From NCBI GenBank assembly GCA_964016885.1, contig OZ024743.1, positions 152,892,001-152,956,000 of the forward strand: 64,000 bases of DNA, given 5' to 3'. The DNA comes from Eledone cirrhosa (lineage: Eukaryota). The notes beneath the pieces are model-generated. The model did not search any database, was not told the DNA's origin, and saw nothing but the letters and a program-made list of their open reading frames with translations. Below, piece after piece: positions 22,417 to 63,154 of the stretch. Position 1 is the first letter of the stretch. Each line of letters begins with the position of its first letter. The position numbers were made by a program, and so were the translations under genes.

Positions 22417-22601
22417 ACAAAGGAATTGTGGTAAGGAACCAGATGGACCATAACGCACCAGATTACTCAATACTTAGGGTAGTAGAGTGGGTAATAGGAA
22501 AAAGTATGACCCCGACGGCAGAGCTCAAGCCGTTTCGACGGCTATTTCTGGACTATAGCCGTCGAAACGGCTTGAGCTCTGCCGTCGGGGTCATACTTTT
22601 T

Positions 22602-22606
<5 letters not shown>
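22417..22606. mobile_element. (TA)n-inserted hairpin element, copy 1 (perfect 52-bp stem, 9-nt loop)
   Basis: 22494-22545 is the exact reverse complement of 22555-22606; the ~75-bp leader is shared with copies at 32105 and 62975. Confidence 0.9.
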
Positions 22607-22639
<33 letters not shown>

Positions 22640-22696
22640 TACATACATATACACACAGACTCAACAACCCATATGCACACTCAAACACACACATTC

Positions 22697-22729
<33 letters not shown>

Positions 22730-23029
22730 AATGTGTGTGGGTGTGTGTGTATATCTCTATATACCCATATGTGGTTGATGACTGAGAAAAAAGAGTACTC
22801 AATATAGAATGAAGGAAATATAGAAAAATGGTCAGACAGTAGAACAACATGAGATGTTTAAACAAAGTAGAAGAAAGTTAACAAAAAGAAAATGAAACAT
22901 CGTGGACAAAATATATGCACAAAAACAGGAACATTGTGTACAATGAAAATATTTATACCCAAAGAAAAGAAAATGATACTATGCCCTACATACGTACATG
23001 CGTACATACATATACATATGTACATACAT

Positions 23030-26000
23030 AAATCAGTCAATGCGACCAGTCACACATATTGCATCAGATATGAATACTATCTCCGACAGTAATGTGACAA
23101 CTAGCAGTCGTGTTGAATAACTGGATATTCTTCCAACTATACCCACTGAAGACACCTTTTATTCGAATTTGTAGCGATATCCAACTAAATACTTAATTCA
23201 TTTTACAAGGATTTGCTAAAATCATCATGGAGAACATAACATCAACATCAACATTAATTTATCGAAGAAAAGCAATGAGAAAGGTAAACAAAATTTATTT
23301 AGTTCTAGCTACAGAAGAAACCAAAATTTTAAATTGCATTTCTCTTGGAGTTACGAACTTAATAATGATTTATTTAATTGTTTTAAAATGGCAAAACAAA
23401 TTTTCCATTGTCTATATGAAATACATCCTGAGTTAAATCACTTTACAGCCAAACAATTACGCCCACTAGCAACGTTTGTTGAACTTAAAAATAACATGAA
23501 TATTATTCATTGTAAGTACCCCAAATCAAACATGCTATCAAAAACACATGCTACAGTTCACCATGCTACTAGACTTTCTAGCAACCAGGCCAAAGAGTCC
23601 CTTGAAACAACTATGCTGGTAAGAAATTTGACACCACATGTATCAACTTATTCTACCCCCACTGTAATGGAAAATACTGTTAATGGTAATACATCTGCCA
23701 TTAGATGGAAAATCAAGAATATATACTTTTGAAAATCACTCCCAATGAAACCTTCCAGAGAGAAATAAATTCATATATAAACATTTCTCTTGCAGAATGT
23801 AATAAAACAGAGGTATAACAAAATGAAACCAAATAATTAAATCCTACGTGCTGTTGATGAAATTGGGGTAAATATTTACGACAAATTAAAACCCCTATAT
23901 TTTGACAAATCAACGTCTGTCTATATCTCCTGGCAACAACAGTGAAGCATTATCTTGGTGATAACAGAGATGATAAGAGGAACAAAACACACCACCAAAA
24001 CCACCATCATATATTATTAAAATAGAAAAAAAGTTTGCTTACCTACAGAAAACCATAGGATATGTGAGAATGCTCCTTACATGCAAACAAATATAAAAAA
24101 ACTACACTCCTCACCAACAAAGAGGGAAAAATAAAATAGAAACGCTGTTTGGTAACTATACAACCAGAACTCTTCTATATAAACTGATCACCCTCAAACA
24201 AGAACTGAGAACTGTCAGCGAGAAACTTCGATACCAGAAGAGGGTAGATGAAAGGAAAATACTTAATAAAAGATTCAGATGAAACCAAACACAAGTCTAT
24301 AGAGATATGAAGGGCAAAGTAATAAATGTCACTGAGACCCCATCCCAGAAAGACATAGATTCCTTCAGGAGAAAAATATGGGGTGAAAAGAAGAATTTCA
24401 AAAAAAACCTTGACCTAGTTGCAACGTTCTCAAAGGCTATAGGAATGGAGTTTTGCCAAGATAAATGTTCATATATGATTGTAAAATCTAGCAACATTTT
24501 TATCAATAGCCTAACTGTTTCACTGATATCTGATGAGGATTGCTACAGATACCTAGGGAAAGATCAGAATACATCCTATGATAGTATCTGTAATAAGAAA
24601 CACATAACTAGGGAACATTACACTCGATTAAGAAAAATATGGTCCTCTGAAATCTCTGTTAACAATAAAACTGTGGCTCACAATGTGTTTGCTGTGCCTA
24701 TCCTAACACTAAAGTTAGGAATACACAATTGAACGATAGACGAAATCTGAGCAATTGATGTTAAAACCTGAAAAATTCTCAACAGCACCAGACACTTCCA
24801 TATCAACAGTGACATAGACTGCCTCTACTTGAAACGTAAGCAGGGAGGCCTAACATCAGTCCAGACAGCATTTGAGTGTCGCATCATATCCCTCTGATAA
24901 CATCTACAAACCTCCAAGCATTTGAGCCCATCTATTGAGCAAGTCTGTCTGCATGAGACCGATAAGATCATGAGAGTTGAGAAGGAACTCCTTGAAAGAT
25001 ACTTCCTGCAAGATAATTAAAAACTCACGCCCAGGGAAATTGCCAACAATACCACATTGAATCAATGGATGAAAAACTGCATGCTTGTCAACAAAAAATC
25101 ATGCATGGATATGTTTCCAGGAAGCTCTAGAGTAAGAGTTTCATAGATAAGTAGTCTATGTTGGACCAACAACTGCTATAATAGCTTTCACTTTGAAGGA
25201 TATGCTTTTGCAATATAAGAACAGGAAATAAATACAAAATACCTGATTCACAAAAGAGATAAGGATGCAGACAAAACACCTCGATATGACAACAAATGCA
25301 GACTCTGCAGAATTAACACTGAAGATGTCACCATGTCATAAGCAGCTGTCCAAAGATGTCATCATGGTACTATCTACTTATGAGGCATGGTGTATTAGCC
25401 AAAATACTATACAATGCAATCCATAGAAAAAACAGTCTCAATAATAAACATATTAAAAGTTACAGCAATGTGGAAGACATACACATGCATAATATAAAAG
25501 AGTACTGGTGGAATGTTCCAGTCAAAACACCAATAAAATGCAAGCATAACAGACCAGATATAATGATATGGGACAGGGAAAAGAAGGCATGCACAGTAGT
25601 GGAAGTTAGCTGCCCAGCAGATGCCAATATAATATTAAAGATTAGCAAGCAGGAGAATATCTATGCAGAACTAATGAGGAATCTGCAGATAATCCACCTT
25701 GACCTATACATTCAGATTTATACCTGTGATTATTGGGGCACTGGCATATGTTAGTAACTGCTTCAGTACAAATCTTGAGAAGTTGGGCTTCACAGAACCA
25801 GATAGAACATGACTAGTTAGAAAATTACAAGTACAATCCATTAATAGAACAGTAAAAATATGTAGAACATTCCAAAAATTCTGCATGTAAAAACTACATG
25901 TACAGATACAAAACATATGCGATACAAAACACATGCACATGCACATCATCATCATCATTTCATTTTAAGTCCGCTTTTCCCTGCTTGCAAGGGTGGGACA

Positions 26001-26470
26001 GGAACTGTTTCTGGCTTTATTTCTACAGCTGGATGCCCTTCCTAACACCAACCTTATTTACAGTGAGTGCTGGGTGCTTTCTTTCCGTGGCACATACACG
26101 ACCACTTTGCAGTGGAATGATAGGGACCCCAGTCCCTATCATCTCATTTCTACAGCTGAGTAAACTGGAGCAATGTGAAATAAAGTGAAATAAAGTGTCT
26201 TGCTCAAGGAAACAACACATCACCCGGTCTGAGAATTGAACTCACAACCTATCCATTGCAAGGCCAATGCTCTAACCACTAAGCCATGTGCCTCCATGTG
26301 CACATATATAATTCAAAACATCCACATCCATGCATACAATAACATTCATACCTGCATGCACATGCATGCATGCAGACATGCATACATATCTACCAATTGA
26401 TGTTGTGTAAATTCAAATGAAACAGTCTTGTTAGAAACCAACTCTCTCTGTATTGATAAAAATTTATAAA
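23030..26470 (+). mobile_element. R4/Dong-like non-LTR retrotransposon with restriction-like endonuclease, decayed, RT core deleted
   Basis: FSKAIGMEFCQDKC, YRYLG, GGLTS; CRLC zinc finger at ~25297; RHGVLAKILY; NRPDIMIWD...VVEVSCP (PD-(D/E)xK) in ORF 25356-25754; ends KICRTFQKFCM* at ~25890. Clade assignment is tentative. Confidence 0.8.
25945..26295 (-). mobile_element. tRNA-derived CORE-like SINE with RTE-derived tail, inserted in the 3' UTR of the RLE element
   Basis: Box A tggcttagtgg, box B gttcaattc, ccttgagcaagacacttt central domain, (GAT)n tail; near-identical to 32308-32641. Confidence 0.88.
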
Positions 26471-28354
26471 ATTATAAAACAAAACAAATATTTATATATA
26501 CATACACACATACATATATTACACCCCACCATCTCAAAAAAAGCAAGAAGCACTCATTTGATGACTTAATTTTAGATAAACTATACCAAAGATAAAAATA
26601 TTGGATGGTCATAGTTGGAATACCTTTTATCATAGATATACTTCAAGTTTGGACCCTGAACTAAACAACTACATATAAGTTTTTCAAAAATTATTTAAAA
26701 AATGATTAGTGAAACATTAAAAAACTTCTATTTGGAGACAATCAGTGGAAAATGTGTCTGCAAATAAGGAAAAAAATTGGTTCTGGATCTATCACATTGA
26801 TGCATGGTGTCAGAGGAGGGTGACAAGATAAAACTGGGCACGGGTATTAACAAACACGATGTCATATATTTCAATGTGACTAAATGAAATATGCAAAAAG
26901 ATTTAATTAAAATTAAAATTAACAATAGAAACATTGAAGAGAATGCGACTTCTCCTATGAAAATCATGAAACAATTTTACTTGAGAAAGAGAGAGTAAAA
27001 CAAATTCTATAGTTTTAACTTTAAATAACTAAAATAAAGTTACTATCTGTTTATTTTAATGAAGAAACTAAATGTTGCTATATTTGATATTCTAGAGTTT
27101 TTTTTATCTTTTCCTCTTTTTGAAATGATTTTCTATAGAATTAAAAATAGAAAACAATTTAAAATGAGCAAAACTATAACCAATAGAAGTAAAAAAAAAA
27201 TACAATTAAAAAATAGAAAAATATTTAACAATTTTCAATACAGAGTTCATTTCAATGACGTTAATTAATTTATTTAAAACTAAACAAATAATAAACCAAA
27301 GCTGTCAACTGAATTTATTTCTATTCTCAAATGAGCAACTTAATTATTTAAATATATGATTATGAGTTTGACTGCAAATTTTGGGAGAAAATCAACAAAA
27401 ACTAAACAACAGAAATTCTTGATGACTTGGTCTTTAAAATGTTTGCATCTTGACCACAACAAACCAATATATAAAGAAATAAACAGAAGTAATATAAACA
27501 AAAGAAAAAAAAAGTGTTTATCATACATTGCAATGAGAAATTTCACATTTCTTTTTTGGGGGCGAGGTGTGGGGCAGTGTTTGGGATAGAAATATGTTTA
27601 AAATTAAACAAATAATAAAAATAAGACTAGATACTGTCAACTGAAGATGTTTCTATTCTGAAGAATGAAACTTAATTATTTAAATAAATCATTCTGACTA
27701 GGAACTATGTGGGTAGGTGGGAAAAATAGCAGGCAAAAAATTAAGAAATACATAGAGAAGTAATGTGACAGTGAAAGAAAAGTAGATTCATAGGATAAAC
27801 CTCTCTCTACATAGCATAGATTCCATTAAGAAACTTAACCTTCCCCCAAGAGATATATGATCAAATATATATATAAATCCCTACTTCCCTACGGACAATT
27901 AACGCTGCACACCAGGTCTGAACATGATTCTTATACTAGTTTCACAATATTTCATATATTTTTGTGTATGAGTATATATGTGTGTGTGTCAGCATTAATA
28001 ACCATTTCGTCTGAAGACTACCACCCTACACCTATTCTAATATATTGCCCACCTCATTGTCCTAGCCAACAGGATGGAGAAGACAATGCCCCAGAGCATG
28101 ATGAGGGAGCTGCACTGGAGAAGCAATAACACCATGAAAGAACCACTTTAGCCATTTCAAAAACACAGAAGATACATTTTTCATTTATTTTGGGAGGTTT
28201 CAACATTTCTATCAAATCTCTACACACTGGCCATTGATAAAAATTCCCCTTATTCAATTTCATCTCAGATCAAATCACTTTCCAAAGTAGTACAACTAAA
28301 AATAATTAAGATTTTAAATAAAAGAAAATTTGTTTCATACACTACAAAGTTTAG

Positions 28355-28520
28355 GTAGACTAGGCTGTGGTTAAGGAGTTTGTTTTGTAAACATAAAATT
28401 TCACGTTCAGTCCCACTGTGAAACACCTTGGTCTAGTGTCTTTTTCTATAGTCTCAGTTTAGATAGTGCTTTGGGAGGGAAATTTGGCAGATAGAAACTG
28501 TATAGAAGTTTGTCATATAT
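28355..28520 (+). mobile_element. Octopus-type tRNA SINE (degenerate)
   Basis: ggctgtggttaag...gttcagtcccactg...caccttgg...agtgtc...tatag...atttggcagatagaaactg followed by (TA)n; related copies near 22245, 37060 and 39990 (-). Confidence 0.6.
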
Positions 28521-28781
28521 ATATATATATAGTATTAGTTATACTATTTATGGTTATGTAAATACAAAACCTTAAGCAGTTGTAAGTATTTTACACACAC
28601 TCTAAATAGTGGTAGGCAGTATTGTATTACTACCTTATTACCAGTAAGTTAAGTAGCTCAATGTAAAAACATCAGATGATTTACAGAGCAGTTATATGAA
28701 ATTTCATTTATATATATACATTTAGGTTTATTGGTTCACCACTGGATAGAACTGGTCATTCCGTATAGTCAACCATGATGT

Positions 28782-29229
28782 AACTAGACCTGAAAAATGC
28801 GCAAACTCAAAAGAGCCACATAATGTTATAATAGACCTTCAAAAGTGTGGGACTAGAGTTGCTGCTCAAAAATATTGTAATCATTATCTATCGTACACTC
28901 TGTGGCATCCTTTTATAAAAAAGAGACTCATAACGAACTCAAGGTGACACGATAATTATTTAAGCTAATGTTCAATATCTCATATTAGATGTTTAGTAAT
29001 GATTAATAAGAAATGAACTTAAACTGAATTCTATATTATAAATTCACTTAAATAATTATCGTGTCGTTTTGAGTTCGTTATGAGTCTCTTTTTTTATAAA
29101 AGGATGCCACAGAGTGTACTATAGATAATAATTACAATATTTTTGAGCAACAACTCTAGTCCACACTTTTGAAGGTTTATTATAAGATTCTGTGGCTCTT
29201 TTGAGCTTGCGCATTTTTCAGGTCTAGTT
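28782..29229. mobile_element. MITE/fold-back with ~180-bp terminal inverted repeats
   Basis: aactagacctgaaaaatgcgcaa...gataattatttaag pairs with cttaaataattatc...ttgcgcatttttcaggtctagtt around an ~80-bp AT-rich spacer. Confidence 0.9.
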
Positions 29230-29960: not shown

Positions 29961-30035
29961 TAGGATAACTACACGATGTTATGTAACTCATTCATCTTCA
30001 ATGTTGAATCTTAGTGGTGGTGTAAGAATAGAGTT

Positions 30036-30621: not shown

Positions 30622-30655
<34 letters not shown>

Positions 30656-30659
30656 TGTT

Positions 30660-32104: not shown

Positions 32105-32297
32105 AACGAAGGAAATGTGGTAGGGAACCAGATGGACCATAACGCACCAAAGTACTCAATATTTAGGGTAGTAGAGTGGGTAATAGGAACAAGTATGACC
32201 CCGACGGCAAAGCTCAAGCTGTTTCGACGGCTAATTCTGGACTAATTAGTCGTCGAAACAGCTTGCGCTCTGTCGTTGGGGTCATACTTGTTCCTAT
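32105..32297. mobile_element. (TA)n-inserted hairpin element, copy 2
   Basis: Stem 32183-32236 / 32244-32297 with a few mismatches; same leader as copy 1. Confidence 0.9.
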
Positions 32298-32307: not shown

Positions 32308-32638
32308 GGAGGCACATGGCTTAGTGGTTAGAGCATTGGCCTTGCAATTGAAAGGCTGTCAGTTCAATTCTCAGACCGGGGGATGTGTTGTTTCCTTGGG
32401 CAAGACACTTTATTTCACATTGCTCCAGTAGAAATGAGATGACAGGGACTGGGGTCCATATCATTCCACTGCAAAGTGGTCGTGGAGGTGCCATGGCAAA
32501 AACCACCCAGCACTCACTGTAAATGATGCTGGTGTTAGGAAGGGCATCCAGCTGTAGAAATCAAGCCAGAATCAGTTCCCATCCCACCCTTGCAAGCAGG
32601 GAAAAGTGGATGTAAAATGATGATGATGATGATGATGA

Positions 32639-32673: not shown

Positions 32674-33347
32674 TTGCAGTCAATAATGGAGGAGTTTAAG
32701 ATCGGATGCCCATGGGAACTCCTATATGCGGATGATCTCGCACTTATAGCTGAATCTATGGTGGAACTAGAGAAGAAATTCCAAACATGGAAACAGGGAC
32801 TATAAGGAAGGGGTCTCAAAGTTAACCTGACAAAGACTAAGGTCCTTGTAAGTAGACGAGAAAACAGAACCCAGATCCTCTCAGGGAAATGGCCTTGTTC
32901 AGTATGTAGGAAAGGTGTAGGTAGGAACTCCTTCCTCTGCCCCAAATGCAAACAATGGGTACACAAGAGATGTAGTGGGATCTCAGGAAGCTTAACTAAG
33001 AATGTAGGCACAGCAAGCAGCAAACGGCCACAGGAAACAGGCACCGCCAAACTCTGGGAGGGCTCTGTAGACAGTTTCTGCTACCTAGGTAACCGAATTA
33101 GCAATGGAGGTGGGTGTTCGGAAAGGACAATACTTGGGTAAGAATGGGATGGAAGAAGTTCAGAGAGCTATTGTCACTGCTAGCTGCAAAAGGCTTTTCC
33201 CTCAAAATGGAAGGCAGACTGTATGATGCGTGTATACGAATTTCAATGTTACATGGTAGTGAGACCTGGGCGCTGTCTGTAGAAGACTTGCGTAGATTAG
33301 AAAGAAACGAAGCCTGCATGCTCTGATGGATGCGTAATAGTAATATA
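32670..33347 (+). mobile_element. RTE fragment, left part of a copy split by a nested insertion
   Basis: Close to 7880-8600 (WELLYADD...); stops at agtaatatac. Confidence 0.9.
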
Positions 33348-35620
33348 CATCATCATCATCATCATCATCATCATTGTTTAACGTCTATCTTCCACGCTAG
33401 CATGGGTTTAGACGGGAATTGTACCACTTGAAGCAAGATTGGTTGTCTTGCTCGTGTAGGACTGTCTGGCAGGTTTTCTACGACTGGATGTCCTTCCTAA
33501 CACCAACCACGTTTACAGTGTGGACTAGGAGATTTTTACCGTATTACCTACACGGCCACATTACAGTATGGACTGTGTGTTTTTTTGTTGTGACACATAC
33601 ACAACCTCATTTATTTAGGACTGGATGTTGTGGTACCAACATAACTTTACATCGAAAGGGGTCGTGTAAATGGAGGTGGGGGTAGGGGTAGTGGGATGGG
33701 GGTGTATTTTGGTTAAGAGGTGCCTACTGACTGTAGGTTATGCTTTGTACTTAGGCAATGCGGGTTTTCTGTATTACTGTGAAGCGCCAAAGATCTCGGT
33801 CTAGTGACATTGTCTTGGAGAGGTGTAAGTGTGTAAGGTCGGAATTTATCAAATTGTCCCAGGTTTTTCTGGGCTGCCTACTCCGTAGCTACCGTCTATT
33901 TTGATCGCCCTGCACTTTTTTATACAGCTGTCGTTTTTCATGCGCATCACGTAACCATACCAACGTAGTCTTCTCTCAAGTAAACAGCATCTGATCCCTC
34001 TTATCCCTAATTTCTCACTTAGTTCATTAATGCTTTGCCGTTCATATATTACTATTACACATCCAACAGAGCATGCAAGCTTTGTTCCTCTCCAGTCTGT
34101 GTAGATCCTCTGCACACAATGTCCATGTCCCACTGCCATGTAACATTGCTGTTTGTATGCAGGCATCATACAGCCTGCCTTTCCTTTTTAGAGAGAAACC
34201 TTTAGCGGCCAATATTGATATAAGCTCTCTGAACTTTTCCATCCCGTTCTGTCTCCAGCTACTGTACTTTCAGAGCACCCTCCACCACTGCTGATTTTGT
34301 CACCCAGGTAACGGAAAGTGTCCACTATTTCTATAGAACCATCTGGGCAATGGAAGGAGCTAGTATCCTGTGGGCACTTGCTACTACTTATTGCACCTGA
34401 GCACCGGCCACATATAAAATCTATGTTCTTAGTTAGCTTACCTGTGATCCCACTACATCTTTTATGCACCCATACTCCTTTCCTACACACTGAGCATGGC
34501 CATTTCCCAGAAGGGACCAGTGCCCTATTTTCCTTCCTACATACTAGAACTTTAGTGTTAGACAAGTTAATTTTAAGGCCTTTTGATTCTAGGCCATACT
34601 TCCATGTTTGGAATTTCTTCTCTAATTCAGCCATTGACTCAGCTATGAGCGTTAGATCATCTGCGTATAGAAGTTCCCATTTGCAGCTGGTCTTGAACTC
34701 CTCTGTTACAGCCTGAAGGGCAATAATAAATAGGAGGGGGCTAATGATAGAGCCCTGATGAACACCAACTTTTACGCTAAACTCTTCACTATATTTGTTG
34801 TTAATTCTAACCTTACTGACTGTTTCTTTATACATGGATTGTATAGCTCTCACAAGCCATTCATCAACACCTAGTTTTCTAAGAGCCCACCAGATAATGG
34901 GGCGTGGGACTCTGTCAAAGGCTTTTTCCAAGTCAACAAAAGCTAAGTATAGGGGTTTACATTTAGCTAGGTACTTCTCCTGTAGTTGTCATACAAAGAA
35001 AAGAGCGTCTGTGGTACTTTTATCTGACACAAACCCGAACTGCATTTCATCTAGCTCAATTCGCTGATTAGTTGTGCTATTACTTTTTCTGTGAACTTCA
35101 TGACCTGGTCAATTAATTTAATGCCTCTATATCTTCCCCTATCTAGGGCATCTCCTTTACCCTTGTAGCAGTTAATGATGATGCTTCTACACCATTCTGT
35201 ATGACTTGGTTTACTATCCAGGTGACCATAGTGTGCCCCACCGTTCCAGATGCTTTCAACATTTCAGCAACTATTTCCAAAGGCCCAGCCGCCTTGCCTG
35301 TCTTCTTATCTTTGATTGCCTTACTTATTATACTACCTTCAACTTGCACTGCTGGTCCCTCTATTGGATCGATGTGTGGGAGACTGTCTTTCTCCCATTT
35401 ATTCTCCCCATTTAGTAGCCTTTCGTAGTGACACTTCCAAGCTACCTTCTTATCAGCATCAGTGATGGCAAGTACACCATCATCATTATGGACACACTTC
35501 TCCCAAACAATATCACGGTTTTCCTTGACACATTGCCTAGAAATCCTGAACCCCTCACGTTTTTGGTCCTCGCGTTGTAGAAAATGCTTGAACTTTCTTT
35601 CCTCTGCTTCCCTTCTTGCG
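33348..35620 (-). mobile_element. 5'-truncated RTE LINE nested in another RTE
   Basis: ORFs 35143-35637, 34188-34931 (EKAFDRV, HQGS, YADD) and 33849-34169; 3' UTR and (GAT)n tail at 33348-33375. Confidence 0.92.
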
Positions 35621-36200
35621 AAGTACGCGAACGGCAAAGCATAAACGAATTGAGAGAGAGACTGAGCTTAAGAGGAAACAAATGCTGCATGCAGGAGAGG
35701 AGGTTGCATTGGTATGGACATGTGATGCGTATGAAGGATGACAGCTGCATAAAAATATGCAGAGCACTAGAAGTCGATGGAAGCCATGGAGTGGGGAGAC
35801 ACAAGAAGACCTGGGATGAGGTGATAAAAGCCAACCGTACCCAATTGCACCTCTCAATGACGATGACACACAACCATGACCTCTGGCGTCACGCAGTAAT
35901 ACAGAAGACCCGACTTCCTATGGGTACAAGCCAAAGCTGAAGCATATAGACAATATGCCCCCACCCAGTCCACACTGTAAATTGGTCGTGGAGGTGCCAC
36001 AGAAAAAAAGCACCCAGCACTCACTGTAAATGAGGTTGGTATTAGGAAGGGCATCCAGCTGTAGAAATCAAGTCAGAATCAGTTCCCATATGAGCAAGAC
36101 AAGGTCAGCCGACTGGACACTGCCCACAACAGGACAACCCGTCTAAACCATGCTAGTGTGGAAGAACGGACGTAAAACGGTGATGATTATGATGATGGTG
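35621..36200 (+). mobile_element. RTE fragment, right part of the split copy, with 3' UTR
   Basis: Resumes at tacgcgaacggcaaagcataaacgaa; colinear with 8598-9198. Confidence 0.9.
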
Positions 36201-45000: not shown

Positions 45001-45067
45001 GATTCGACTCTATATCTATATAAAATATCCAGATGAATTTTATGCCACATCTATAAAACGTGTAAAA

Positions 45068-46503
45068 CTATAGGAGCATTGAGTTACTTGTCCAGGTCAT
45101 GAAAGTCACAGAAAGAGTTATTACTCAACTGATTAGAGACCGAATTGATCTAGACGAAATGCAGTTTGGGTTTGTGCCAGGTAAAAGCACCACGGATGTT
45201 CCTTTCCTTATACAGCAACTACAGAAGATGCACCGAGCTAAAAGAAAACCCCTCTACTTAGATTTTGTTGACTTGGAGAAACCCTTTGACAGAGTCCTAC
45301 ACACTAGAATCTGGTGGGCTCTTAGAAAACTAGGAGTAGATGAATGTCTTGTGAGAGTATACAAACCATGTATAGAGGAACAGTCAGCAAGGTTAGAATT
45401 AACAATGAATATAGTGACGAATTTAGCGTAATAGTAGGGGTTCACCAGGGCTCTGTCCTTAGCCCCTCCTCTTTATTATTGTCCTACAGGCTATAACAGA
45501 AGGGTTTAAGACAGGCTGCCATTTGGAACTTTTATATGCAGATGATCTAACTCTCATAGCTGAATCCATGGCTGAATTAGAGAAGTTCTAAACATGGAAG
45601 CATGCCTAGAATCAAAAAGCCTTAGAGTTAACTTGTCTAAGACTAAAGTTCTAGTATGTAGAAAGGAGAAGAGGGCACAGGTGCCCTCTGGCAAATGACC
45701 ATGCTCAGTGTGTAAGAAAGGAGTAGGTAGAAATTCCATTCTATGTCCCAAATAAAAACTATGGGTACATAAAAGATATAGTGGGGTCGCAGGTAAGCTA
45801 TCTAAGAATGTAGATTTTGTATGTGGCCAATGCTCAGGTGCAGTAAGTAGCAAGGACCCACTGGATACTAGTTTCTCCTTCAACTGCCAAGATGTTTCTA
45901 TAGAAATAGTAGACACTTTCCGTTACCTGGGTGACAAAATCAGCAGTGGAGGAGCGTGTTGTGGAGAGGAGATTATTTGGTATGGCCATGTGATGTGTAT
46001 GAAGGATGACAGCCGTATAAAAAAGTGCAGAGCAATGAAAATTGATGGAAGCTACGGAGTGAGTAGACCAAGAAATACCTGGGACAAGGTGATAAAAACT
46101 GACCTTGCTCACTTACACCTCTCTAAGATAATGTCACTGGATCGAGATCTTTGGCACCATGCAGTTGTACAGAACACCCACCTTCCACCAACCTACAGTC
46201 AGTAGGCACTTCTTAAACCAATATATACCCCACCTCAGACACACTGCCCCATCCACTCTGTTGGTGACACAACAAAAAGCACTCTGTCCACACTGGAAAG
46301 TGGTCATGTAGGAGACAGTAAAAAGGCTCCCAGTCTTAGAAAGGGCATCCAGCCATAGGAAACCTGCCAGAGATACCTTCGTACGAGTGAGACACGGTCT
46401 CCCGACCAATCCCGCATCAAATGGAACAAAACTGTCTAACCCATGCTAACGTGGAAGATGGACGTTAAACAATGATGGTGATGATGATGATGATGATGAT
46501 GAT
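45068..46503 (+). mobile_element. RTE LINE fragment (RT, PHD finger, internal deletion at ~45960, 3' UTR, (GAT)n)
   Basis: ORF 45099-45431 has QFGF and FVDLEKPFDRV; colinear with 7470-9198. Confidence 0.9.
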
Positions 46504-50182: not shown

Positions 50183-50788
50183 ATTATTCTTCAAGCGGTG
50201 GATTGGCAGTATCGGTAGAGGGTCGGGCGCCATGCTTTGAAGCATAGAGTTACCTCCCTTTATGATCTGAGTTCAAATCCCGCTGAGGTTAACTTTGCCT
50301 TTCATCCTTATGGGGTCGATAAAATAAAGTACCAGTAATGCACTGGGATAATTGCTGGCCTGGTGCCAAAAGTAGAAACAATTATTCTTCAAGCGGTGGA
50401 TTGGCAGTATCGGTAGAGGGTCGGGCGCCATGCTTTGAAGCATAGAGTTACCTCCCTTTATGATCTGAGTTCAAATCCCGCTGAGGTTAACTTTGCCTTT
50501 CATCCTTATGGGGTCGATAAAATAAAGTACCAGTAATGCACTGGGATAATTGCTGGCCTGGTGCCAAAAGTAGAAACAATTATTCTTCAAGCGGTGGATT
50601 GGCAGTATCGGTAGAGGGCCGGGCGCCATGCTTTGAAGCATAGAGTTACCTCCCTTTATGATCTGAGTTCAAATCCCGCTGAGGTTAACTTTGCCTTTCA
50701 TCCTTATGGGGTCGATAAAATAAAGTACCAGTAATGCACTGGGATAATTGCTGGCCTGGTGCCAAAAGTAGAAACAATTATTCTTCAA
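50183..50788 (+). mobile_element. Three tandem copies (198-bp period) of a tRNA-derived Nin-domain-like SINE
   Basis: Units start at 50183, 50381 and 50579; attattcttcaa occurs four times; box A tggcagtatcgg, box B gagttcaaatcc; gcctttcatccttatggggtcgataaaataaagtaccag domain. Confidence 0.93.
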
Positions 50789-51029: not shown

Positions 51030-52005
51030 GACTGTGGATTGACAAAGTCATTGGAGCATTGGACAAAATACTTAGCAAAACACTTACATCTCAGGGGTAG
51101 AGGATAGGAAATATTGGTAGAACATCATATAGTTACATCCTTTTAAGTTCCGAGTTCAAATCCTGCTAAGGTTAGTTTTGCCTTTCATCCTTACGAGTTT
51201 GATAAAATAAAATACCAGTAATGCACTGGGGTTGCTTTAATCAACTCCATCCTCCCAATAAAAAGAAAATTGTTGACCTTGCGCCTTAATCAGAAACCAT
51301 AATTTTTGCATTATTTTACATTCTGAGTTCAAATCTGGCATAGGTCAACTTTGACTATTAATGATATGCTATGTGACTCCATAGCCAGTAGGCTGGCATT
51401 ACAAGAATAAAGAATATGCTCAAAAAGTGAAATATGAAAGAGTAAATAAATTAAATAATTGTTTCTACTTCAGGCAGAAGGCCAGCAATTTGAAGGGAAG
51501 GGGAAAGTCGATTAAATCGACCACAGTGCTTACAGGTACTGCTAGCGTGGAAAATGGACGTTAAACGAAGATGATGATGATGATGATGATGATGAACCCT
51601 ATAAGGATGGAAGGCAAAGTTAACATTGGCTGGATTTGAACTCAGAACGCAAAGGGCCGTAACTCTATGCTAAAAAGCATATTGTCCGACACTCTACCGA
51701 TATTGCCAATAGAAATAATGATTTCTAATGAAGGTAAACTAAAGTACCAGTAAAGTAATGGGGTTGTTATAATTGTCTTTCCCCTCCTCACAAAGCCTTG
51801 AGCTTTTTAGAAATCATGGCAGTATTGGTAGAGGGTCGGACGCCATGCTTTGCAGCAAAGAGTTTCGGCCCTTTATGATCTGAGTTCAAATCCCGCCGAG
51901 GTTAACTTTGCCTTTCATCCTTACGGGGTCGATAAAATAAAGTACCAGTAATACACTGGGGTAATTGCTGGCCTTGTGCCAAATGTAGAAACAATTATTA
52001 TTATC
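51030..52005. mobile_element. Cluster of further Nin-like SINE copies (51140-51300 +, 51455-51710 - interrupted by an RTE tail, 51817-52003 +)
   Basis: Repeated gagttcaaatcc...ttgcctttcatcctt...gataaaataaa.taccagtaa on both strands. Confidence 0.85.
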
Positions 52006-55645: not shown

Positions 55646-56865
55646 AAACCGTATAGTAAATCCAGGGTTGTTATAGAAGACTTATGGTACATTGCAGTTA
55701 AATGGAATTTGAAGCCACATGACCATACCTGCCCCTCATTACATTAAGTCTGTGAAAAATAAAAACGGATGCAACAGTCATAGCTGAAATGTGTTTAATG
55801 ATAACTCCACCTAAACAGAGCTGATCTAAGGCTAAACAACTTAATACGCACATACAAGGTTTGGTTTTGTGTTTAGACAAAATATAAATCAGCGTTTTTT
55901 ATGAAAAAGATAGCTGAACACATTTCTTGCAATATTCTTAAAATATTTCAATTGAAATTTTCAACTCTTTTTTTGGGGGTCAAGAAATTTGATTTTAACA
56001 ATATCATGTGCCAATAAATGATACAAGTATGACATATTATTATTAATTTGCCTGACTTAGAAAAGAAATTGAGATTTAATCTCATGTTTCTATTTTCATG
56101 ACTACAATGATATTAAAAAAATAGTGTCTGAAGTCAAAGTTCTTTGTGTTACCTAAAGGCACTAGACACAATTCTTAGAATGTGATATATTAATATTTAT
56201 TCTGATACATGTAATAATTTTGCTGGATAAATTAATACTTTTTTGTTGTTCTAGCTGATTTGGTTTAAGTAAAATATTAGGTTTTGGAGTTATCCTACTG
56301 GAAAAGGCCTACGACATTGCTCTTTATCAGTATTGAGAAAATAGCAATTGTGAAGATATTTTCATATATTAATATCTTTTCTTGGACCTTACTGCAATTT
56401 CCATTGCTAAAAGAAAAAGAAATTTGTTCCACAATCTAACAACTGCTGGATCAATTTCATATTGTTTAAGCAGCAAAGAAAAGGAAGAAAATGTAAATAA
56501 ATTGAGCATTTGGATAACTTCTTATATATAGTGCAGCAAATAGAGAAACATATTTATTGGCAAGAAGCTACAGAAAAAAGTAGACAAGTTCATTTGTAAC
56601 AATGTTACCTTCCTCTAATAAATGAGAAAGCAAGCTCGGGTTAAGTGTAAAAATATTTCTTATTTTATAATCTATACACATTCTTACTTCTTTGCAGTTG
56701 CTATAAACACAAAGAAATGCTATAAACATGAAGAAATGTTCTGTTAAAACTGTAAAAAATATTCAATAAGACAGTAACAAATCCCACTTATAATAGTACA
56801 TTATCAAAAACATGTATCCATGAGAAATAGACATTGACTTTTGACTATAAATGGTACATAATAAT

Positions 56866-57074
56866 TGTTTCTATTTTTGGCACAAGGCCAGCAATTATCC
56901 CAGTGTATTACTGGTACTTTATTCTATCGACCCCATAAGGATGAAAGGCAAAGTTAACCTCGGCAGGATTTGAACTCAGACCATAAAGGGCTGTAACTCT
57001 TTGCTGCAAAGCATGGCGTCCAACCCTCTACCGATACTGCCAATCCACCGCCAACTTGCCAATCCACCGCCAAC
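56866..57074 (-). mobile_element. Nin-like tRNA SINE with 18-bp TSD
   Basis: TSD taaatggtacataataat at 56848-56865 and 57075-57092; same family as the 50183 array. Confidence 0.92.
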
Positions 57075-58565
57075 TAAATGGTACATAATAATGCACAACT
57101 AGTATAACATTAAAAATTAATATTTTAGAATTCATCTTCTCTTAACATATTTTCTATTGATGGCATTAATATGTTTGTGTATCATCACATAAACTATCGA
57201 ATAAAGATTTATAGAAAATTTAATATAGTTATATATATTAGAAATTTTAAAATAGATTAAAATTTCTTCATTGGATAAAACATTTGAATGTTTCCTGTTT
57301 TCTACACTATTCACTCTCTGGCCAAGATTGAAATCAAGTATCTGATATCACATGGCAAATTCAATTTTCTTTTTAACTAGTTTTACAATCAGTATAGGGT
57401 ATATCAGTTTTATAAATTATCAAAGAACTGATGTATTTTTAATTCTCATGTAAAAATGCAATTTGCAACTAAATTGATTTTGCAATCTATCAGGTTTTCT
57501 TTCCCATGGAATTTAGTTACACTAAAGTTCACTTACAAGATTTTCACCAAATTGCTAGCTTATGTTTATTTGAAATTACTTCAATGTCTTCTGGGTATAA
57601 TTATTGAGAAAATTACCAATTTTACTTGCAACCACTTGAAGCTGCCAGAATTACTATGGATTTAGGAATTTTACCAAATTGGGAGTTGGAAGGGAAATTA
57701 AATGTTGACCCATTATTACTTGTCTTAAAACTATTACATTTTCTCAATTTACAATATCTGTTGATGTAATACCTATGAAAAAAGTCAATATACTATATGA
57801 GATTATCATTGAGTAAAATATCAATGAAGTACAAATGCAAATGTCTGTGGAATTTCACATTTGTTGACAAATAATTCCAGTTGTATAGCAATTTGGTTCA
57901 TGAAAGTTCTTAGGGAAATTAGTGACCTTCAAAATTTTATGGGATCAGAACGATATCTAACATGACAAACCCAAAAGAAAAAAAAATAATAATTAAAAAA
58001 TCATTTGAAGTAATTTTCTCTCTATTAATTTTCCCTTCTACAATCACCTGAAAAGAGACAATTGATCAAGTTTGGTTATCTTTTTAAGTGTGAGGTTTTT
58101 TAACACAAAGAAATCGGTACATTGATACTGAAATAGATATCTTCATAAAAGAAGACATGTGTCATTAAACCTAGATTCCAATATTACTAGTGATTCTTTC
58201 TGTGTCAACATCATTTAACATCTGATATTCCATGCTGTCATAGGTTGGACAAAATTTGAACTTATCATTAATCAAAAAGCAAGGTATTTTCTCCAATACT
58301 CTTATAATTCCACCAATCTACTGACTTGACTTGGTACTCTATAAACCTTGAAATGACAAAAGGCAAAGTTAAAATTAGTGGGGCTGGAATTCGGAGGGTG
58401 AAGATCTCAAACAAATACTCCAAAGCATTTTGTCTGATATTTTAATGTGCACTGGTAAATATATCATTATTAATATCAGCTATTTGCCCTTTTGATATCA
58501 ACCTAAATGAAAACTCATCTTTAAAGTTTTCGTCATCACCATCATTATCCTCCTTCTCTTCATAA

Positions 58566-60292
58566 CACTGTGTAACATATTATTTGTTTGCTAGTTCTAA
58601 GTGTCATTTCCTGGTTTATTATATCCCATTATTATAAAGAAACACTATTATTTAATTAGAAGTTGGGTTTTGAGGTCAGGAGTTTGATATTTTGAAATTT
58701 TCATATTTTTCAAGAAAAAACACATTTAAAAAAAATTTATCAGTTTTAAAAAAATGTATCAGTTTATCAACAGAGTATATATTTATTTTATTACACAAGG
58801 TTATCAAAAGCAAACAAGTAAAACCAAATAACACTTATAAAGCAACTTATATACGTCAGAAATGACTGGATTTCCTGGATTTGCAGTTGTAGTCCAGGTC
58901 GCATTCCCGCACTAACCCCAGATATAGTCCCCATCCTTTTTTCATTGTAGTGGCTCTGGTACCTCCGCTCTATCTCTTTCACATCTTGGTGGATTCGTTC
59001 GCCTTGTTCTTCTGAGTAGGCGCCCATATTGTCCTTGAATTTTTCCAGGTGAGCGTCCAGCATATGGAGTTTAAGCGACATCCTGCATCCCATTGCGCCA
59101 AAATCTTTTATCAGATCCTTCACCAGTTGCTGGTAGTTTTCAGCTCTGTAGTTGCCCAGGAAGCCCTTAACAACTGCCTTGAAACAGTTCCATGCTGTTC
59201 CCTCAATCCTATTGAGCTTATTGGAGAACTCGGTAGACTCAAACACCTTCTTTATCTGAGGTCCAACAAAAATTCCACCTTTGATTTTGGCCTCAGATAA
59301 CTTGGGGAAGAACTCAAGAAGGTACTTAAAAGCGGCTGATTCTTGGTTGAGAGCCTTCACAAACTGCTTCATCAACCCCAACTTAATGTGCAGTGGCGGC
59401 ATGAGCACAATCCTGGGATCAACCAGTGGCTCCCACATGACGTTCCAGGTCCCAACTACAAATTCTGTTCGCTGCTCCCAGTTCTTTCTTTTGTAGTGGT
59501 CAGAGGTGGCTCTGCTGTCCCAAAGGCAGAGGAAGCATTGGAATTTGATAAAGCCTCCTTGGAGTCCAAGCAGGAAAGCCACCATCTTGAAGTCTTCAAT
59601 GATTTCCCAATTGTACTGGTTGTATTGCAGAGCTTCCAAGAGGACTTTCAGGCAGACTGAATGAGCTAAGGGCAGTGTCGGGAACTTGTTTCCATTGTGG
59701 AGGAGGACAGCCTTCAAACTTGTGGTGGAGCTGTCTATAAATAGCTGCCACTCCTTGGGCAAAACCGCAATAACATCAAACAATCCAGGCACGTCATGGC
59801 AGAAGCAGAGGCCATCCCTAAGAGTGTAAAAGCCTGAGAAAGGTTTGTGTCGACTTCTCTGACTTGTCACCTGCACTTCCTCCTTGACCAAGTTCCACTG
59901 CTTCATCCTGGAGATGAATGCTTAAAACACAACTTACCCTTTATTCAGGGTGCAAAAATCCAGTATCAATAAATCTCTTTAATCCACTTTTTAACAATTT
60001 TATACTTTATTGCACTTTTATAATTTTCTTTAGGTATTACTCTTTATTTTATCATTTTAATTTAACCTGAAACATATATAAAAAAAATCATTTAATATAA
60101 GCAAATTAAACTTACATACAACGTAAACTCCAGCATACAAATAATTCTAGTGAATAGCTTAGGATTTTTACAAACCCAAACTTTTAACTGTTTAATAGCA
60201 CTTTTTTTTTATTTATTTGGGACCTAAGCAACACAAAAAAAAAGTGATTACAAGCCAGGAACAGAGAAAACATTTTTTTTTGTTACACGGTG
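58566..60292 (-). mobile_element. Chapaev3 (CMC superfamily) DNA transposon, internally deleted
   Basis: Termini cactgtgtaaca (58566) and tgttacacggtg (60281-60292); TAA on both flanks (58563-58565, 60293-60295); contains a transposase ORF. Confidence 0.85.
58791..59906 (-). CDS. Chapaev3-type transposase, C-terminal/catalytic part (371-aa open frame, N-terminus missing)
   Basis: WQLFIDSSTTSLKAVLLHNGN, CFLCLWDSRA, PPLHIKLGLMKQFVKAL, FPKLSEAKIKGGIFVGPQI, MSLKLHMLDAH, GAYSEEQGERIHQD. Confidence 0.8.
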   Translation of the reverse strand: MKQWNLVKEEVQVTSQRSRHKPFSGFYTLRDGLCFCHDVPGLFDVIAVLPKEWQLFIDSSTTSLKAVLLHNGNKFPTLPLAHSVCLKVLLEALQYNQYNWEIIEDFKMVAFLLGLQGGFIKFQCFLCLWDSRATSDHYKRKNWEQRTEFVVGTWNVMWEPLVDPRIVLMPPLHIKLGLMKQFVKALNQESAAFKYLLEFFPKLSEAKIKGGIFVGPQIKKVFESTEFSNKLNRIEGTAWNCFKAVVKGFLGNYRAENYQQLVKDLIKDFGAMGCRMSLKLHMLDAHLEKFKDNMGAYSEEQGERIHQDVKEIERRYQSHYNEKRMGTISGVSAGMRPGLQLQIQEIQSFLTYISCFISVIWFYLFAFDNLV

Positions 60293-60682
60293 TAATCATC
60301 ATCATCACCATCACCATCACCACCACCACCACCACCATCATCATCATCACCACCATCCTCATCCTCATCCCCATCATCATCATCATTTTATGTCTGCTTT
60401 CCATGCTGGCATGAACAAGTTGTCACAGTCCAAAACCAAAGAGACAAAGCAGCTTCATCTTGTTTATACATATTTGTCAGGGATTCTACAATTGGATACC
60501 TTTCCTGACACAAACCATCATACAAAGTATTCATATCTAAAATAAATAATTTCATCAGGATTTATGTATTAATCTTTCATTAAGTGTTTTTCCAAACTAG
60601 AATTCAATAGCAAAAATGTTATTTATTCAATGAAATCAATCCTAAATCTTCTGATTAAAATTTAATTATTTTTATTATCTTA

Positions 60683-61410
60683 CACTGGTCTACAATGAAA
60701 TTGTTTTGGAGACCAAACCAGTTGATCTTTATTAATTTGAGGGTGCTGAATGATACCCATGTTTGATGTTTAGGTCTTCTTTTTGAAATTTACTTCAAAT
60801 GCAGCTTTTTCATTTTTTATGAAAATAAGCAGAAGGGGTGGGGGAGTGGGATTGTAAGCTACTATCAGTAGTGTAAGACAAAAGAATTGAAGACAATTTT
60901 TGTTACATTTGTGGCAAAATAACCTTTACTGTAAAAAAAAGAACAATGACAAATAATGTTAGAAGGGCCTATCATCTTTATTTTCGTGTCGTGAAAGTGG
61001 GAGAACAAGACAAGCGCTGGGCCGTGCATGTGTGCTGTAATATTTGTGTAACAAACCTTCACCAATGGCTGCAAAGGAAAAGAAAATTTATGCTTTTTGC
61101 AGTGTCAATGGTTTGGCATGAGCTAACTAATCATTTAAACAATTGTTACTTCTGTATTGTGCAACTATCTCAGAAAGGACTTAAAATACAGATGCCCAGT
61201 GCCACATGGTGAAACACTACCTACACCTGTATCCCCAGAAATAATCCCTTGTAGAAGGTAAGATAATTTTGCTGCCACCATCGAACATCAAACTGGGATT
61301 GATGAAGAACTTAATAAAAGCTGTAGATTAGACAGGACAGGTTTTCCAGTATCTTGGCAGGAAGTTTCCACAACCAAGTGAAGCAAAAAAAAAAATTAAA
61401 GAGGGCATGA
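60683..61410 (+). mobile_element. Second, older Chapaev3 remnant (left end and N-terminal zinc finger)
   Basis: tta|cactg terminus; FCYICG at ~60898; AYHLYF...GEQDKRWAVHVCCNIC...FAVSMVWHE..NH..NCYFC (ORF 60946-61212); FP..SEAK..IKEG at ~61365. Confidence 0.75.
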
Positions 61411-61497
61411 TTCTACCCTACATGAGAATAAACTGGAGAGGCCTCTCATGAATCCCAATTCCTAGTTATTTTCAAATTTAACTGAAATACATGTGTA

Positions 61498-61656
61498 TGA
61501 GGGTCAGCTGAAAAGTTCATATGCTGACTATAAAGGAGCGATGCTAGGGCTGTGAAATCTTGCATGCATTGTTTTCAACTCTTCTTATTAATAATTGACT
61601 TTGGTCATTTCATGAGAGTATTTTGGTCAGCTAATGAACTTTTCAGTAGACCCTCG
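61498..61656. mobile_element. Tc1/mariner-type MITE
   Basis: ta|tgagggtcagctgaaaagttcat...atgaacttttcagtagaccctcg|ta, i.e. TIRs with TA flanks. Confidence 0.75.
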
Positions 61657-61879
61657 TAATTCAATAGAAATATAGTCACAAATGGTAACTGTAAGGTTTC
61701 AGAGATAAGACTTTAAATTGATAATGTGTAAATATTTTACATTAGACATCTTATATTAGACATACTCAACATTCACCCATAACTTCATATCTGTCTCCCT
61801 TCTTCTTTTAGCCACCACCAAACCCCACAGAGCAGAGACAGCTCTTCTGTTGGGACTGTGACCAACAACTATACTTGTG

Positions 61880-62330
61880 AATGTGCCTTGAAAATAAACT
61901 CGGTACACCCTGTAAGGCAGCTGGCAATAGGAAGGGTATTCCACTATAGAAACCAGGCCAAAATGTGTTGAGAGGACATCTCAGATGTTTTAATGGCAAA
62001 ACAATCTCTCTAGTGTTAGTGATTTACATGATAAACACACCCACTGTACACTGTAAAGTGGTTGGTGATAGGAAAGGCCTCCAGCTGTAGAAATCTTGCC
62101 AAAGAAAGGGTTGGGAGATACCTTCGGTTATGTTATGGACATGAAAACCTCCCTAGTGTTGGTCATCTTCATGATATATGCACACCATTCATATTGTAAA
62201 ATGATTGATGATAGAAATGACATCCAAACTTGGAAAGTTTGCCAAACAAAGGATTGTAGGGACCCTTCAGTTGTGTCAAAACATATGACAGCCTCTCTAG
62301 TGCAGGTACCACAACAAAATGCACTTGGTA
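61880..62330 (+). repeat. RTE 3'-UTR-like tandem modules
   Basis: Repeated cactgtaaagtggttggtgataggaa.g.c.tccagc.gtagaaa-like units. Confidence 0.55.
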
Positions 62331-62409
62331 AAATGTGGGACCATATGTAAGTGAGATGCTAACCTATGGCCATTTTTCACAAATTTCTATCCACTAATAA
62401 AGATACTAT

Positions 62410-62686
62410 GTGGAGGCATGTGGCCTAGTGGTAAGGGTTAGACTTACAATCATAATGTTGTGTGTTTGTTTCCTGGGTTGTGTGTTGCTTTCTTGAGCAA
62501 AACACTTGATTTCACATTGTTCCATTATACTCAGCTGAAAATGAGTACCAGCAATAACTGGGGGTTTAATCCTGCAACGGACTGGCATCCTATCTAAGGG
62601 GCAGTCTTGTAATCTTAGTCGCTTCACGCCATGAAACCGGGATAAGCAAATGAGCCTTCTCGCTTAAGACAGATTTTAAGCTTTTA
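62410..62686 (+). mobile_element. tRNA/CORE-like SINE with a different (V-domain-like) 3' half, 15-bp TSD
   Basis: TSD taataaagatactat at 62395-62409 and 62687-62701; head ggaggcatgtggcctagtgg; cctgcaacggactggcatcctatctaagggg...tagtcgcttcacgccatgaaaccggg. Confidence 0.85.
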
Positions 62687-62974
62687 TAATAAAGATACTA
62701 TAAACATTTGAATTAACTGATCAAATATATTTCAGAAAGTATGGAAGACAACTATAGACATGTTTCAGTCTTAGTATGACCTGATCTTCAAAGCAGATAG
62801 ACTTCATTTTACATAGGGGTGAACATACCACCAAATAAATGATTTGACACATATAGGAAAATAGAATTGTTTAAGGAATAAATAACACAGGGATGGCATT
62901 ATATATGTTAGTATAAACTTCACTATTGATTTTCATGCAGATGGTATCTCTGATGGTATCTCTGTCTAATATAA

Positions 62975-63154
62975 ACATGGTGGACCATAACGCACCAGAG
63001 TACTCAATATTTAGGGTAGTAGAGTGGATAATAGGAAAAGAGTCAGGACACCGATGGCTGAGCTCCAGCTGTTTCGACAGCTAGATCTCAACATTCAGAT
63101 CTAGCTATTGAAACAGCTGGAGCTCAGCCATTGGGGTCCTGACTCCTTTCCTAT
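62975..63154. mobile_element. Hairpin element, copy 3 (divergent variant)
   Basis: Stem 63031-63088 / 63097-63154; same leader; followed by (TA)n. Confidence 0.88.

What the first reader, a model, noticed from the sequence alone, without database searches (positions are those of the whole stretch)
22417..63154. (TA)n-associated ~190-bp hairpin element whose two arms change together between copies
Seen: three copies (22417, 32105, 62975) share a leader (tggaccataacgcacca..tactcaata.ttagggtagtagagtgg.taa) followed by a 52-58-bp stem that ends at a (TA)n tract. Differences between copies occur in both arms: aaaaag/cttttt vs aacaag/cttgtt; gccgtttc/gaaacggc vs gctgtttc/gaaacagc; copy 3 has gagtcaggac/gtcctgactc and ggctgagctccagc/gctggagctcagcc. 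The gtttcgac core of the left arm is constant and the loop varies. There are no terminal inverted repeats spanning the element, no pol III boxes and no LINE-type tail, so it does not fit a MITE, SINE or Helitron. Inference: either one arm is templated from the other during mobilisation (fold-back self-priming, possibly Penelope-related), or the structure is under selection as a dsRNA/cruciform. This is the best candidate here for an undescribed element.
Basis: partly seen in the sequence, partly recalled or inferred. Interest (0 to 1): 0.8.

Follow-up and report, generated by a model that had tools for sequence, protein, structure and literature searches.

The report
Penelope retroelement twin-primed hairpin insertions
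The three hairpins are real, short insertions from a very abundant Penelope-like jumping gene, and their matching arms likely arise because both sides of a cut in TA repeats each copy the same end of the element's RNA and the two copies are joined head to head.

Summary
It is the 5' end of a Hydra-clade Penelope-like element (PLE): 58 nt of pseudo-LTR plus an 80-nt 'tail', joined to an inverted tail-less copy inside (TA)n. A tail word has 29,308 exact genomic matches, and ~3-kb parents encode RT and GIY-YIG with Hydra motifs. Arms match because both come from one donor type: 8 of 93 are discordant against 72 at random, and they decay separately afterwards. Simple fold-back fits poorly. Either arm can be the longer (22 and 22 of 70). 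Both stop at one site that often carries an extra, probably cap-derived G (2,761 G against 347 A). 28 of 70 centres have 0-2 unpaired bases. Almost every insertion has exactly one tail (26 of 27 short, 18 of 18 long). Best reading (inferred): two opposed target-primed cDNAs from the two internal start sites known for a lizard PLE, joined head to head. The scan noted similar PLE mini-hairpins on other DNA and read them as fold-backs.

The parts
22416..22493 (-). Its end is the inferred distal start of reverse transcription
   Evidence: 96% identical to the tail of natural long copy L047; followed by the ORF in long copies
22494..22554 (-). Copy 1: tail-bearing arm = transcribed part of the pLTR, from the inferred RNA 5' end (22554) to the proximal start site
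   Evidence: 100% identical over 62 nt to the pLTR of L047
22510..22547 (-). Copy 1: 3' half of a predicted type I hammerhead (helix II 3' strand, GAAA core, helix III with palindromic loop, GUC site); the 5' half is absent from the short copies
   Evidence: Alignment of 31 full pLTRs; no Rfam match
22555..22606 (+). Copy 1: inverted, tail-less arm, ending at the proximal start site in (TA)n
   Evidence: the same end is a 3' end of long copies
22402..22415 (.). Copy 1: left (TA)n target tract
22604..22636 (.). Copy 1: right (TA)n target tract
32105..32243 (-). Copy 2: tail plus tail-bearing arm
   Evidence: 91.5% identical over 142 nt to L047 pLTR+tail
32244..32297 (+). Copy 2: inverted tail-less arm, 5 mismatches to the other arm, ending in (TA)n
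62981..63096 (-). Copy 3: shortened tail plus tail-bearing arm and loop, from a more diverged subfamily
63097..63154 (+). Copy 3: inverted tail-less arm, 5 mismatches to the other arm, ending in (TA)n

Best explanation
Each hairpin is the 5' end of a Hydra-clade Penelope-like retroelement present twice, head to head, inside a (TA)n tract, and it is likely made by two separate reverse-transcription events primed from the two sides of one cut. Inferred steps: (1) the element's RNA starts inside the pLTR and is capped; (2) the GIY-YIG endonuclease cuts both strands of (TA)n; (3) one DNA end primes cDNA at the far end of the 80-nt tail and the other at the near end, both sites ending in a TAT that matches the target; (4) both cDNAs run towards the RNA 5' end, about 140 and 60 nt away, sometimes copying the cap as an extra base; (5) the two free ends are trimmed and joined by end-joining, with short microhomology or filler. 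The arms match because both are read from the same donor RNA or donor type. Afterwards they mutate independently. Long copies with inverted repeats are likely the same event with longer cDNAs. Shown directly: identity to the PLE pLTR and tail, the two fixed ends, symmetric truncation, junction diversity, the extra G and the one-tail rule. Inferred: the RNA start, the cap origin of the G, double-strand cutting, and the order of events.
For: Parent: the 5' ORF piece of L035 finds 975 candidates. Fetched copies show pLTR-tail-ORF-pLTR with Hydra motifs, 41% identical over 433 aa to P0054, whose N-terminus matches the printed Hydra-1_Ajap text. Two fixed ends: long copies end either at the near site or at the tail end; raw DNA reads show 3,450 and 3,052 loose (TA)n ends at these two places. 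Symmetry: the tail-less arm is longer by 3 nt or more in 22 of 70, the tail arm in 22 of 70. The same holds in copies with identical arms (6 and 7 of 17), and missing length does not track arm divergence (rho -0.14, p 0.27). Extra G: the base before the stop site is T 6,185, G 2,761, C 1,971, A 347 of 11,264. In 30 of 30 G loci it sits at a junction rather than in upstream pLTR sequence, 15 on tail arms and 15 on tail-less arms. Centres with 0-2 unpaired bases occur in 28 of 70. One tail per insertion: 26 of 27 short and 18 of 18 long. Literature: a lizard PLE cuts and extends both strands, starts at two internal sites that bound the tail, and is predicted to be a dimer (PMC11167929).
Against: No RNA, cap or biochemical data for this family; the run search listed no RNA holder. 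About 10 of the 30 G bases could come from the other arm's own G. The one-tail rule is also expected under fold-back. The lizard assay saw no strand difference in start-site use, so the coupling of one site to each strand is unexplained. Two cDNAs over the same 58 nt of one RNA need strand displacement or two RNAs from one locus; neither is shown. The 70 hairpins come from the first 100 exact hits on one chromosome, so they are young subfamilies only; 4 were corrected by hand. How long copies pass the RNA 5' end was not resolved.
Confidence: 0.68

Rival explanations
1. Fold-back self-priming: one cDNA runs from the tail end to the RNA 5' end, snaps back and copies itself to the TAT site, where it is joined to the target; centre deletions at or after insertion blur the symmetry.
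For: Gives one tail per insertion and matching arms naturally. Fits the 22 of 70 copies whose tail arm is longer, including window copies 1 and 2; copy 2 has a 6-nt overlap that could prime. Self-priming was proposed for PLE palindromes (PMC3846280 passages). Seven mirrored rare sites against 0.5 expected fit it, though they fit a shared donor equally well.
Against: The tail-less arm holds sequence that the tail arm lacks in 22 of 70 copies, and in 6 of 17 with identical arms. Loss does not grow with arm divergence. The tail-less arm carries the extra terminal G as often as the tail arm (15 and 15). 28 of 70 centres have loops of 0-2 nt. In long copies L177 and L180 the inverted arm holds ORF stretches absent from the adjacent start of the direct arm. 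One short copy (L099) has arms of two subfamilies, 3 differences apart.
Confidence: 0.2
2. The short hairpin is a non-autonomous family in its own right: a 140-nt RNA transcribed from short copies by an internal promoter is mobilised by the Hydra protein, and the hairpin is rebuilt at each insertion. This differs from the best reading only in the donor.
For: Short forms outnumber long ones: 70 hairpins against 10 read-through copies in 100 hits. Drosophila Penelope has an internal promoter (PMC2377424 passages).
Against: The subfamily types seen in short copies also occur in long copies. In the lizard PLE the minimal template needs sequence past the start sites (PMC11167929), which short copies lack. 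No whole-hairpin master was seen (60 junctions in 70).
Confidence: 0.1
3. The hairpin is kept by selection as a dsRNA or cruciform structure, with compensatory changes.
For: Very stable fold; arms agree more within copies than between them (95.3% against 88.7%).
Against: The agreement is explained by subfamily (95.9% against 95.6%). 106 of 120 rare-allele observations break the pairing. Window copies 2 and 3 each have 5 uncompensated mismatches. Loop and stem length vary freely.
Confidence: 0.02

Closest known systems
Hydra clade of EN+ Penelope-like elements (Craig et al. 2021, PMC8557442), e.g. Hydra-1_Ajap, Hydra-1_Obim
   Same: C-terminal GIY-YIG, RWK-like and DKT motifs, CxCx5C linker, CxxC and CxH motifs, about 3 kb, (TA)n target, hammerhead-like motif in the pLTR.
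   Different: A different family from Hydra-1_Obim: printed protein and hammerhead differ and the element's words are absent from that supplement. The hammerhead core is U3-A8 with a long loop II, where the listed Hydra motifs have C3-G8. Copy number is in the tens of thousands, mostly as short hairpins.
Canonical PLE insertion unit: pLTR, adjacent inverted 5'-truncated copy, tail at one end (PMC8557442 Fig. 2 legend; PMC3846280)
   Same: Identical layout, here at minimal length.
   Different: The tail is 80 nt, not 30-40. The papers read attribute it to endonuclease resolution or self-priming; the data here point to two opposed primings.
Poseidon PLE of Anolis (PAc), in vitro mechanism (PMC11167929)
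   Same: Two internal RT start sites bounding the tail, AT-rich target, both strands cut and extended.
   Different: Different clade. Here both start sites end in TAT matching the target, and each insertion uses one of each; that coupling was not reported in the parts read.
L1 twin priming (Ostertag and Kazazian 2001; seen only through passages of PMC2246262 and PMC11702581)
   Same: Both sides of a break prime cDNA on element RNA and give an inversion joined by end-joining. A few copies here (L071, L082, L087, L139) show the same non-overlapping form.
   Different: In L1 the two cDNAs barely overlap and the second start is variable; here the second start is fixed and both cDNAs usually cover the same 58 nt.
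Non-LTR retrozymes (bioRxiv 10.64898/2026.07.22.740005, first part read)
   Same: Short, non-coding, PLE-derived, hammerhead-related.
   Different: Retrozymes are head-to-tail tandems with complete hammerheads; these are head-to-head pairs lacking the 5' half of the core.

Membership tests
Hydra-clade PLE | Single ORF with PLE RT and C-terminal GIY-YIG endonuclease | tested here: met
   P0001 has the RT YRDD motif, then the VIY..YIG endonuclease; 935 homologues; one homologue has a weak GIY-YIG Pfam match below cut-off. P0001 itself has no Pfam match. All 20 fetched ORFs are broken.
Hydra-clade PLE | RWK motif and DKT in place of DKG | tested here: met
   RWR and DKT in the natural N-terminal frame of L043; KWR and DKT in L035.
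Hydra-clade PLE | CxCx5C linker; CxxC and CxH near the C-terminus | tested here: met
   CNCPDRSTC, CNLC and CKH in P0001; definitions.
Hydra-clade PLE | Insertion into (TA)n | tested here: met
   88 of 100 tail ends and 56 of 70 tail-less ends abut at least three TA units; 4 more abut (TC)n.
Hydra-clade PLE | Hammerhead motif in the pLTR | tested here: inconclusive
   Core positions are 96% conserved against 88% in loop II, N7 takes all four letters, and 92.5% of proposed pair cells are paired. There is no two-sided covariation and no Rfam hit. The U3-A8 core is a variant reported in PMC4209133. Cleavage untested.
Hydra-clade PLE | Phylogenetic placement inside the Hydra clade | not tested
   No tree built; only 41% identity to P0054, whose N-terminus matches the Hydra-1_Ajap text.
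Hydra-1_Obim (named family) | Sequence identity to the published consensus | tested here: not met
   Three of five element words are absent from the supplement, and the hits of the other two shown lie in unrelated sequences; printed protein and hammerhead differ.
PLE insertion unit | Inverted 5'-truncated copy next to the pLTR, tail at one end only | tested here: met
   26 of 27 short and 18 of 18 long two-armed insertions.
Non-LTR retrozyme | Head-to-tail tandem units, each with a complete type I hammerhead | tested here: not met
   Short copies are head to head and begin inside loop II.
MITE | Terminal inverted repeats and fixed internal sequence copied as a whole | tested here: not met
   The inverted repeat is at one end only; 60 different centres in 70 copies.
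Any Repbase/Dfam family | Match to a deposited consensus | not testable with these tools
   Neither library is held.

The most novel reading that the evidence does not exclude
The inverted repeat and the one-sided tail of Penelope-like elements have a single cause: every insertion is two cDNAs, one from each internal start site on a capped RNA, primed from opposite sides of one cut and fused head to head. This genome holds tens of thousands of minimal products that record each step, down to the copied cap on both arms.
Probability: 0.55. Interest if true: 0.65.

Novelty: new member of a known kind. Interest (0 to 1): 0.45.

Why it matters
How PLEs form tandem and inverted structures and the one-sided tail is named as an open question in PMC8557442. 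This family offers a very large natural data set that separates fold-back from twin priming and links the in vitro start sites of PMC11167929 to genomic structure. In practice, repeat annotation could mistake these hairpins for MITEs or structured RNAs. Extrapolating 70 of 100 hits to 29,308 matches gives roughly 20,000 young 50-60-bp hairpins, which could form dsRNA when they are transcribed inside introns (untested). As a class, the element is ordinary.

Tried and rejected
A canonical CUGANGA hammerhead core directly upstream of the arm: the pattern gave 5 hits, but all lie at junctions (partly cut from view); full pLTRs have a different, U3-A8 core about 45 nt further up. Rfam: no family in the window at gathering score, and no hammerhead at E up to 10 in two pLTRs. 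Pfam and PDB sequence searches with the ORF pieces found nothing. My first clade guess, Nematis, was dropped when the Hydra motif list matched. A first pair count used a mis-registered structure and was redone; covariation is not above shuffles. A first junction parser over-extended and was replaced. No RNA holder was listed, so expression is untested. No ORF fragment of the parent lies in the window (blastn and tblastn). tRNA scan of the window: 0. Helitron, parvovirus-like hairpin end and MITE readings were dropped once the PLE parent was found. Earlier-findings look-up by sequence: nothing.
Full report
Observation. The three copies are present as described. Stems are 49, 51 and 55 bp (52, 54, 58 with the flanking TAT/ATA) with 0, 5 and 5 mismatches. 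Copy 1 folds far below shuffles (z -18.4). Copies 1 and 2 sit between two (TA)n tracts; copy 3 has lost its left end.

A large family. Copy 1 finds 2,106 candidates in the own genome, of which 40 were scored, at 90-100% identity. A 28-nt leader word has 29,308 exact matches and its reversed control has 0. I fetched all of the first 100 listed matches, which lie in the first 23 Mb of contig C1. Of these, 70 parsed as hairpins, 26 had no parsed second arm (10 of them read on into upstream sequence of longer copies), and 4 lacked the start of the first arm. Copy 3 belongs to a separate subfamily with the same layout (3,210 candidates, 40 scored, 20 fetched). Raw genomic reads of run X9 show 3,052 and 3,450 loose ends running into (TA)n at the tail end and at the arm end, so the two ends are not assembly artefacts.

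The parent. One locus (L035) held the element joined to an ORF start. That piece found 975 candidates; I fetched 20 of the 40 listed. They show pLTR, the 80-nt leader, a 5' UTR, an ORF and a 3' pLTR, with about 2.8-2.9 kb from ATG to the 3' pLTR in uninterrupted copies. The element therefore reads on the window's minus strand, and the leader is the PLE tail. All 20 ORFs are broken; the longest open frame is 461 aa (P0001). It has 935 homologues. It carries the motifs given for the Hydra clade in PMC8557442: CxCx5C linker, CxxC, CxH, and, in L043, RWR and DKT. It is 41% identical over 433 aa to P0054, whose N-terminal text equals that of Hydra-1_Ajap in the supplement. It is not Hydra-1_Obim. 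No tree was built, and the host organism was not determined.

Hammerhead. Across 31 full pLTRs (33 found, 2 rearranged ones left out) a type I hammerhead can be drawn with a U3-A8 core, a free N7 and a palindromic loop III. Core positions are 96% conserved against 88% in loop II, and 92.5% of pair cells are paired against 28-61% for slid controls, but there is no two-sided covariation and no Rfam match. PMC4209133 reports a U3-A8 variant in Schistosoma PLEs.

Why the arms change together. Within-copy arm identity is 95.3% against 88.7% for shuffled pairs (maximum 90.6 in 2,000; 66 copies with enough shared columns). Shuffling within subfamily gives 95.6% against 95.9% observed (p about 0.08). 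Of 120 rare-allele observations, 14 (7 sites) are mirrored, against 0.5 sites expected, and 106 are not. In 93 copies with both arms of a recurrent type, 8 are discordant against 72 at random; most differ by one base, L099 by three, and L117 is counted twice. There are 60 distinct junctions in 70 copies. So both arms come from one donor type at insertion, each hairpin is new, and the arms then decay separately. Selection on the duplex is not needed.

Fold-back or two primings. Fold-back predicts that the tail-less arm is a subset of the tail arm. It is longer by 3 nt or more in 22 of 70 and shorter in 22 of 70 (four copies were corrected by hand). In 15 of 70 the tail-less arm reaches the stop site while the tail arm falls short, and in 15 the reverse holds. 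The symmetry persists in the 17 copies with identical arms (6 and 7), and lost length does not track divergence (rho -0.14, p 0.27, 65 copies). Centres have 0-2 unpaired bases in 28 of 70, too tight for a snap-back loop (general knowledge). Several join at short natural palindromes, as expected if two like ends anneal. Both arms pile up at one site. The base before it, over 11,264 exact words, is T 6,185 (the templated base), G 2,761, C 1,971 (by subtraction) and A 347. In the first 30 G loci none continues into upstream pLTR sequence, and the G lies on a tail arm 15 times and on a tail-less arm 15 times; about 10 could borrow the G from the partner arm. An extra G at full-length L1 5' junctions is attributed to the cap (PMC11702581 passage). 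In my unselected sample the counts are small: G in 4 of 19 tail-less arms and C in 3 of 10 tail-arm junctions. A TATA-like word lies about 31 nt upstream of the site (seen, untested).

One tail per insertion. In the G sample, which was not selected for tails, 27 of 29 insertions had two arms; 26 had one tail, 1 had two, 0 had none (two ambiguous rows were called by eye; p 4e-7 against a coin toss). Of 30 long loci, 17 independent ones had both ends in view (11 lacked a scorable second end, and 3 near-identical ones were counted once); with L035 this makes 18, all with one tail. Eight of them were selected for a tail on the direct end. In 5 the tail is on the inverted arm. The rule fits both models, but the point where the tail-less arm ends is also a 3' end of long direct copies, so it behaves as a start site of reverse transcription.

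Mechanism. PMC11167929 (parts 1-3 of 4 read) shows a lizard PLE cutting and extending both target strands, starting at two internal sites that bound the tail, with a predicted dimer. I infer that here each side of a cut in (TA)n primes one cDNA, one at each site, both run to the capped 5' end, and end-joining fuses them. It works like L1 twin priming (passages in PMC2246262 and PMC11702581; the 2001 paper itself was not read), but with fixed starts and overlapping copies. Open points: how one site is coupled to each strand, whether one or two RNAs are used, whether short copies are donors, and how long copies pass the 5' end. Several long copies have upstream pLTR sequence before their 5' pLTR, and L035, L038 and L049 join the 5' end to the middle of the ORF, which hints at template jumps.

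What is known. The layout 'inverted truncated copy plus tail at one end' is described (PMC8557442: passages, section 15 and supplement parts). Self-priming was proposed in PMC3846280 (passages). I also saw passages of PMC2377424, parts 1-2 of 4 of PMC4209133 and part 1 of 5 of bioRxiv 10.64898/2026.07.22.740005. Ten library searches and a term search of the three text supplements of PMC11167929 showed no statement that PLE inversions come from opposed priming at the two start sites. Subscription papers, supplementary figures, Repbase and Dfam were not seen, so this is weak evidence of absence. The scan's earlier notes list similar PLE mini-hairpins in other genomes, read as fold-backs; I did not test them.

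Verdict. Real, abundant, and a new family of a known clade in a known layout. The interest lies in the evidence that the hairpin comes from twin priming rather than fold-back. Interest 0.45.

Noticed in passing
window 5865-8773 (+); related copies near 14500-15460, 32675-33350, 33877-35670 (-), 35624-35910, 45065-46180: Several copies of a LINE with endonuclease, RT and PHD-finger Pfam matches.
   Followed up: partly
window 9830-13380: GC-richer stretch with a 232-aa frame ending in a CCHC-like motif and further broken frames; looks like another retroelement (label from recall); no Pfam match for the first frame.
   Followed up: partly
window 58791-59921 (-): 376-aa open frame without Pfam match; resembles a DNA-transposon protein by recall only.
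   Followed up: partly
window 50183-50788: Three near-identical 198-bp tandem units of a dispersed repeat that also occurs at 51796 and, inverted, at 56839-57051.
   Followed up: no
window 32308-32620: A tRNA-like SINE head (label from recall; ARAGORN finds no tRNA) begins directly after the right (TA)n of copy 2; an inverted copy lies at 25960-26308.
   Followed up: no
window 15585-15941: 48-bp tandem array of 7.5 units related to a dispersed repeat.
   Followed up: no
L177:3337-7924, L179:3294-7848, L181:3243-6623: Three near-identical long insertions with shared flanks on contig C28, likely duplicated with their surroundings; their tail stops at about 48 nt, a possible third start site.
   Followed up: partly
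L070, L116 and L150 hairpin centres: Filler DNA between the arms: a run of about 18 A, a run of about 18 T, and a short templated piece of the arm itself.
   Followed up: no
L031:1380-1790, L022, L195:1580-2254: New copies often land in the (TA)n tract of an older copy, giving clusters.
   Followed up: no
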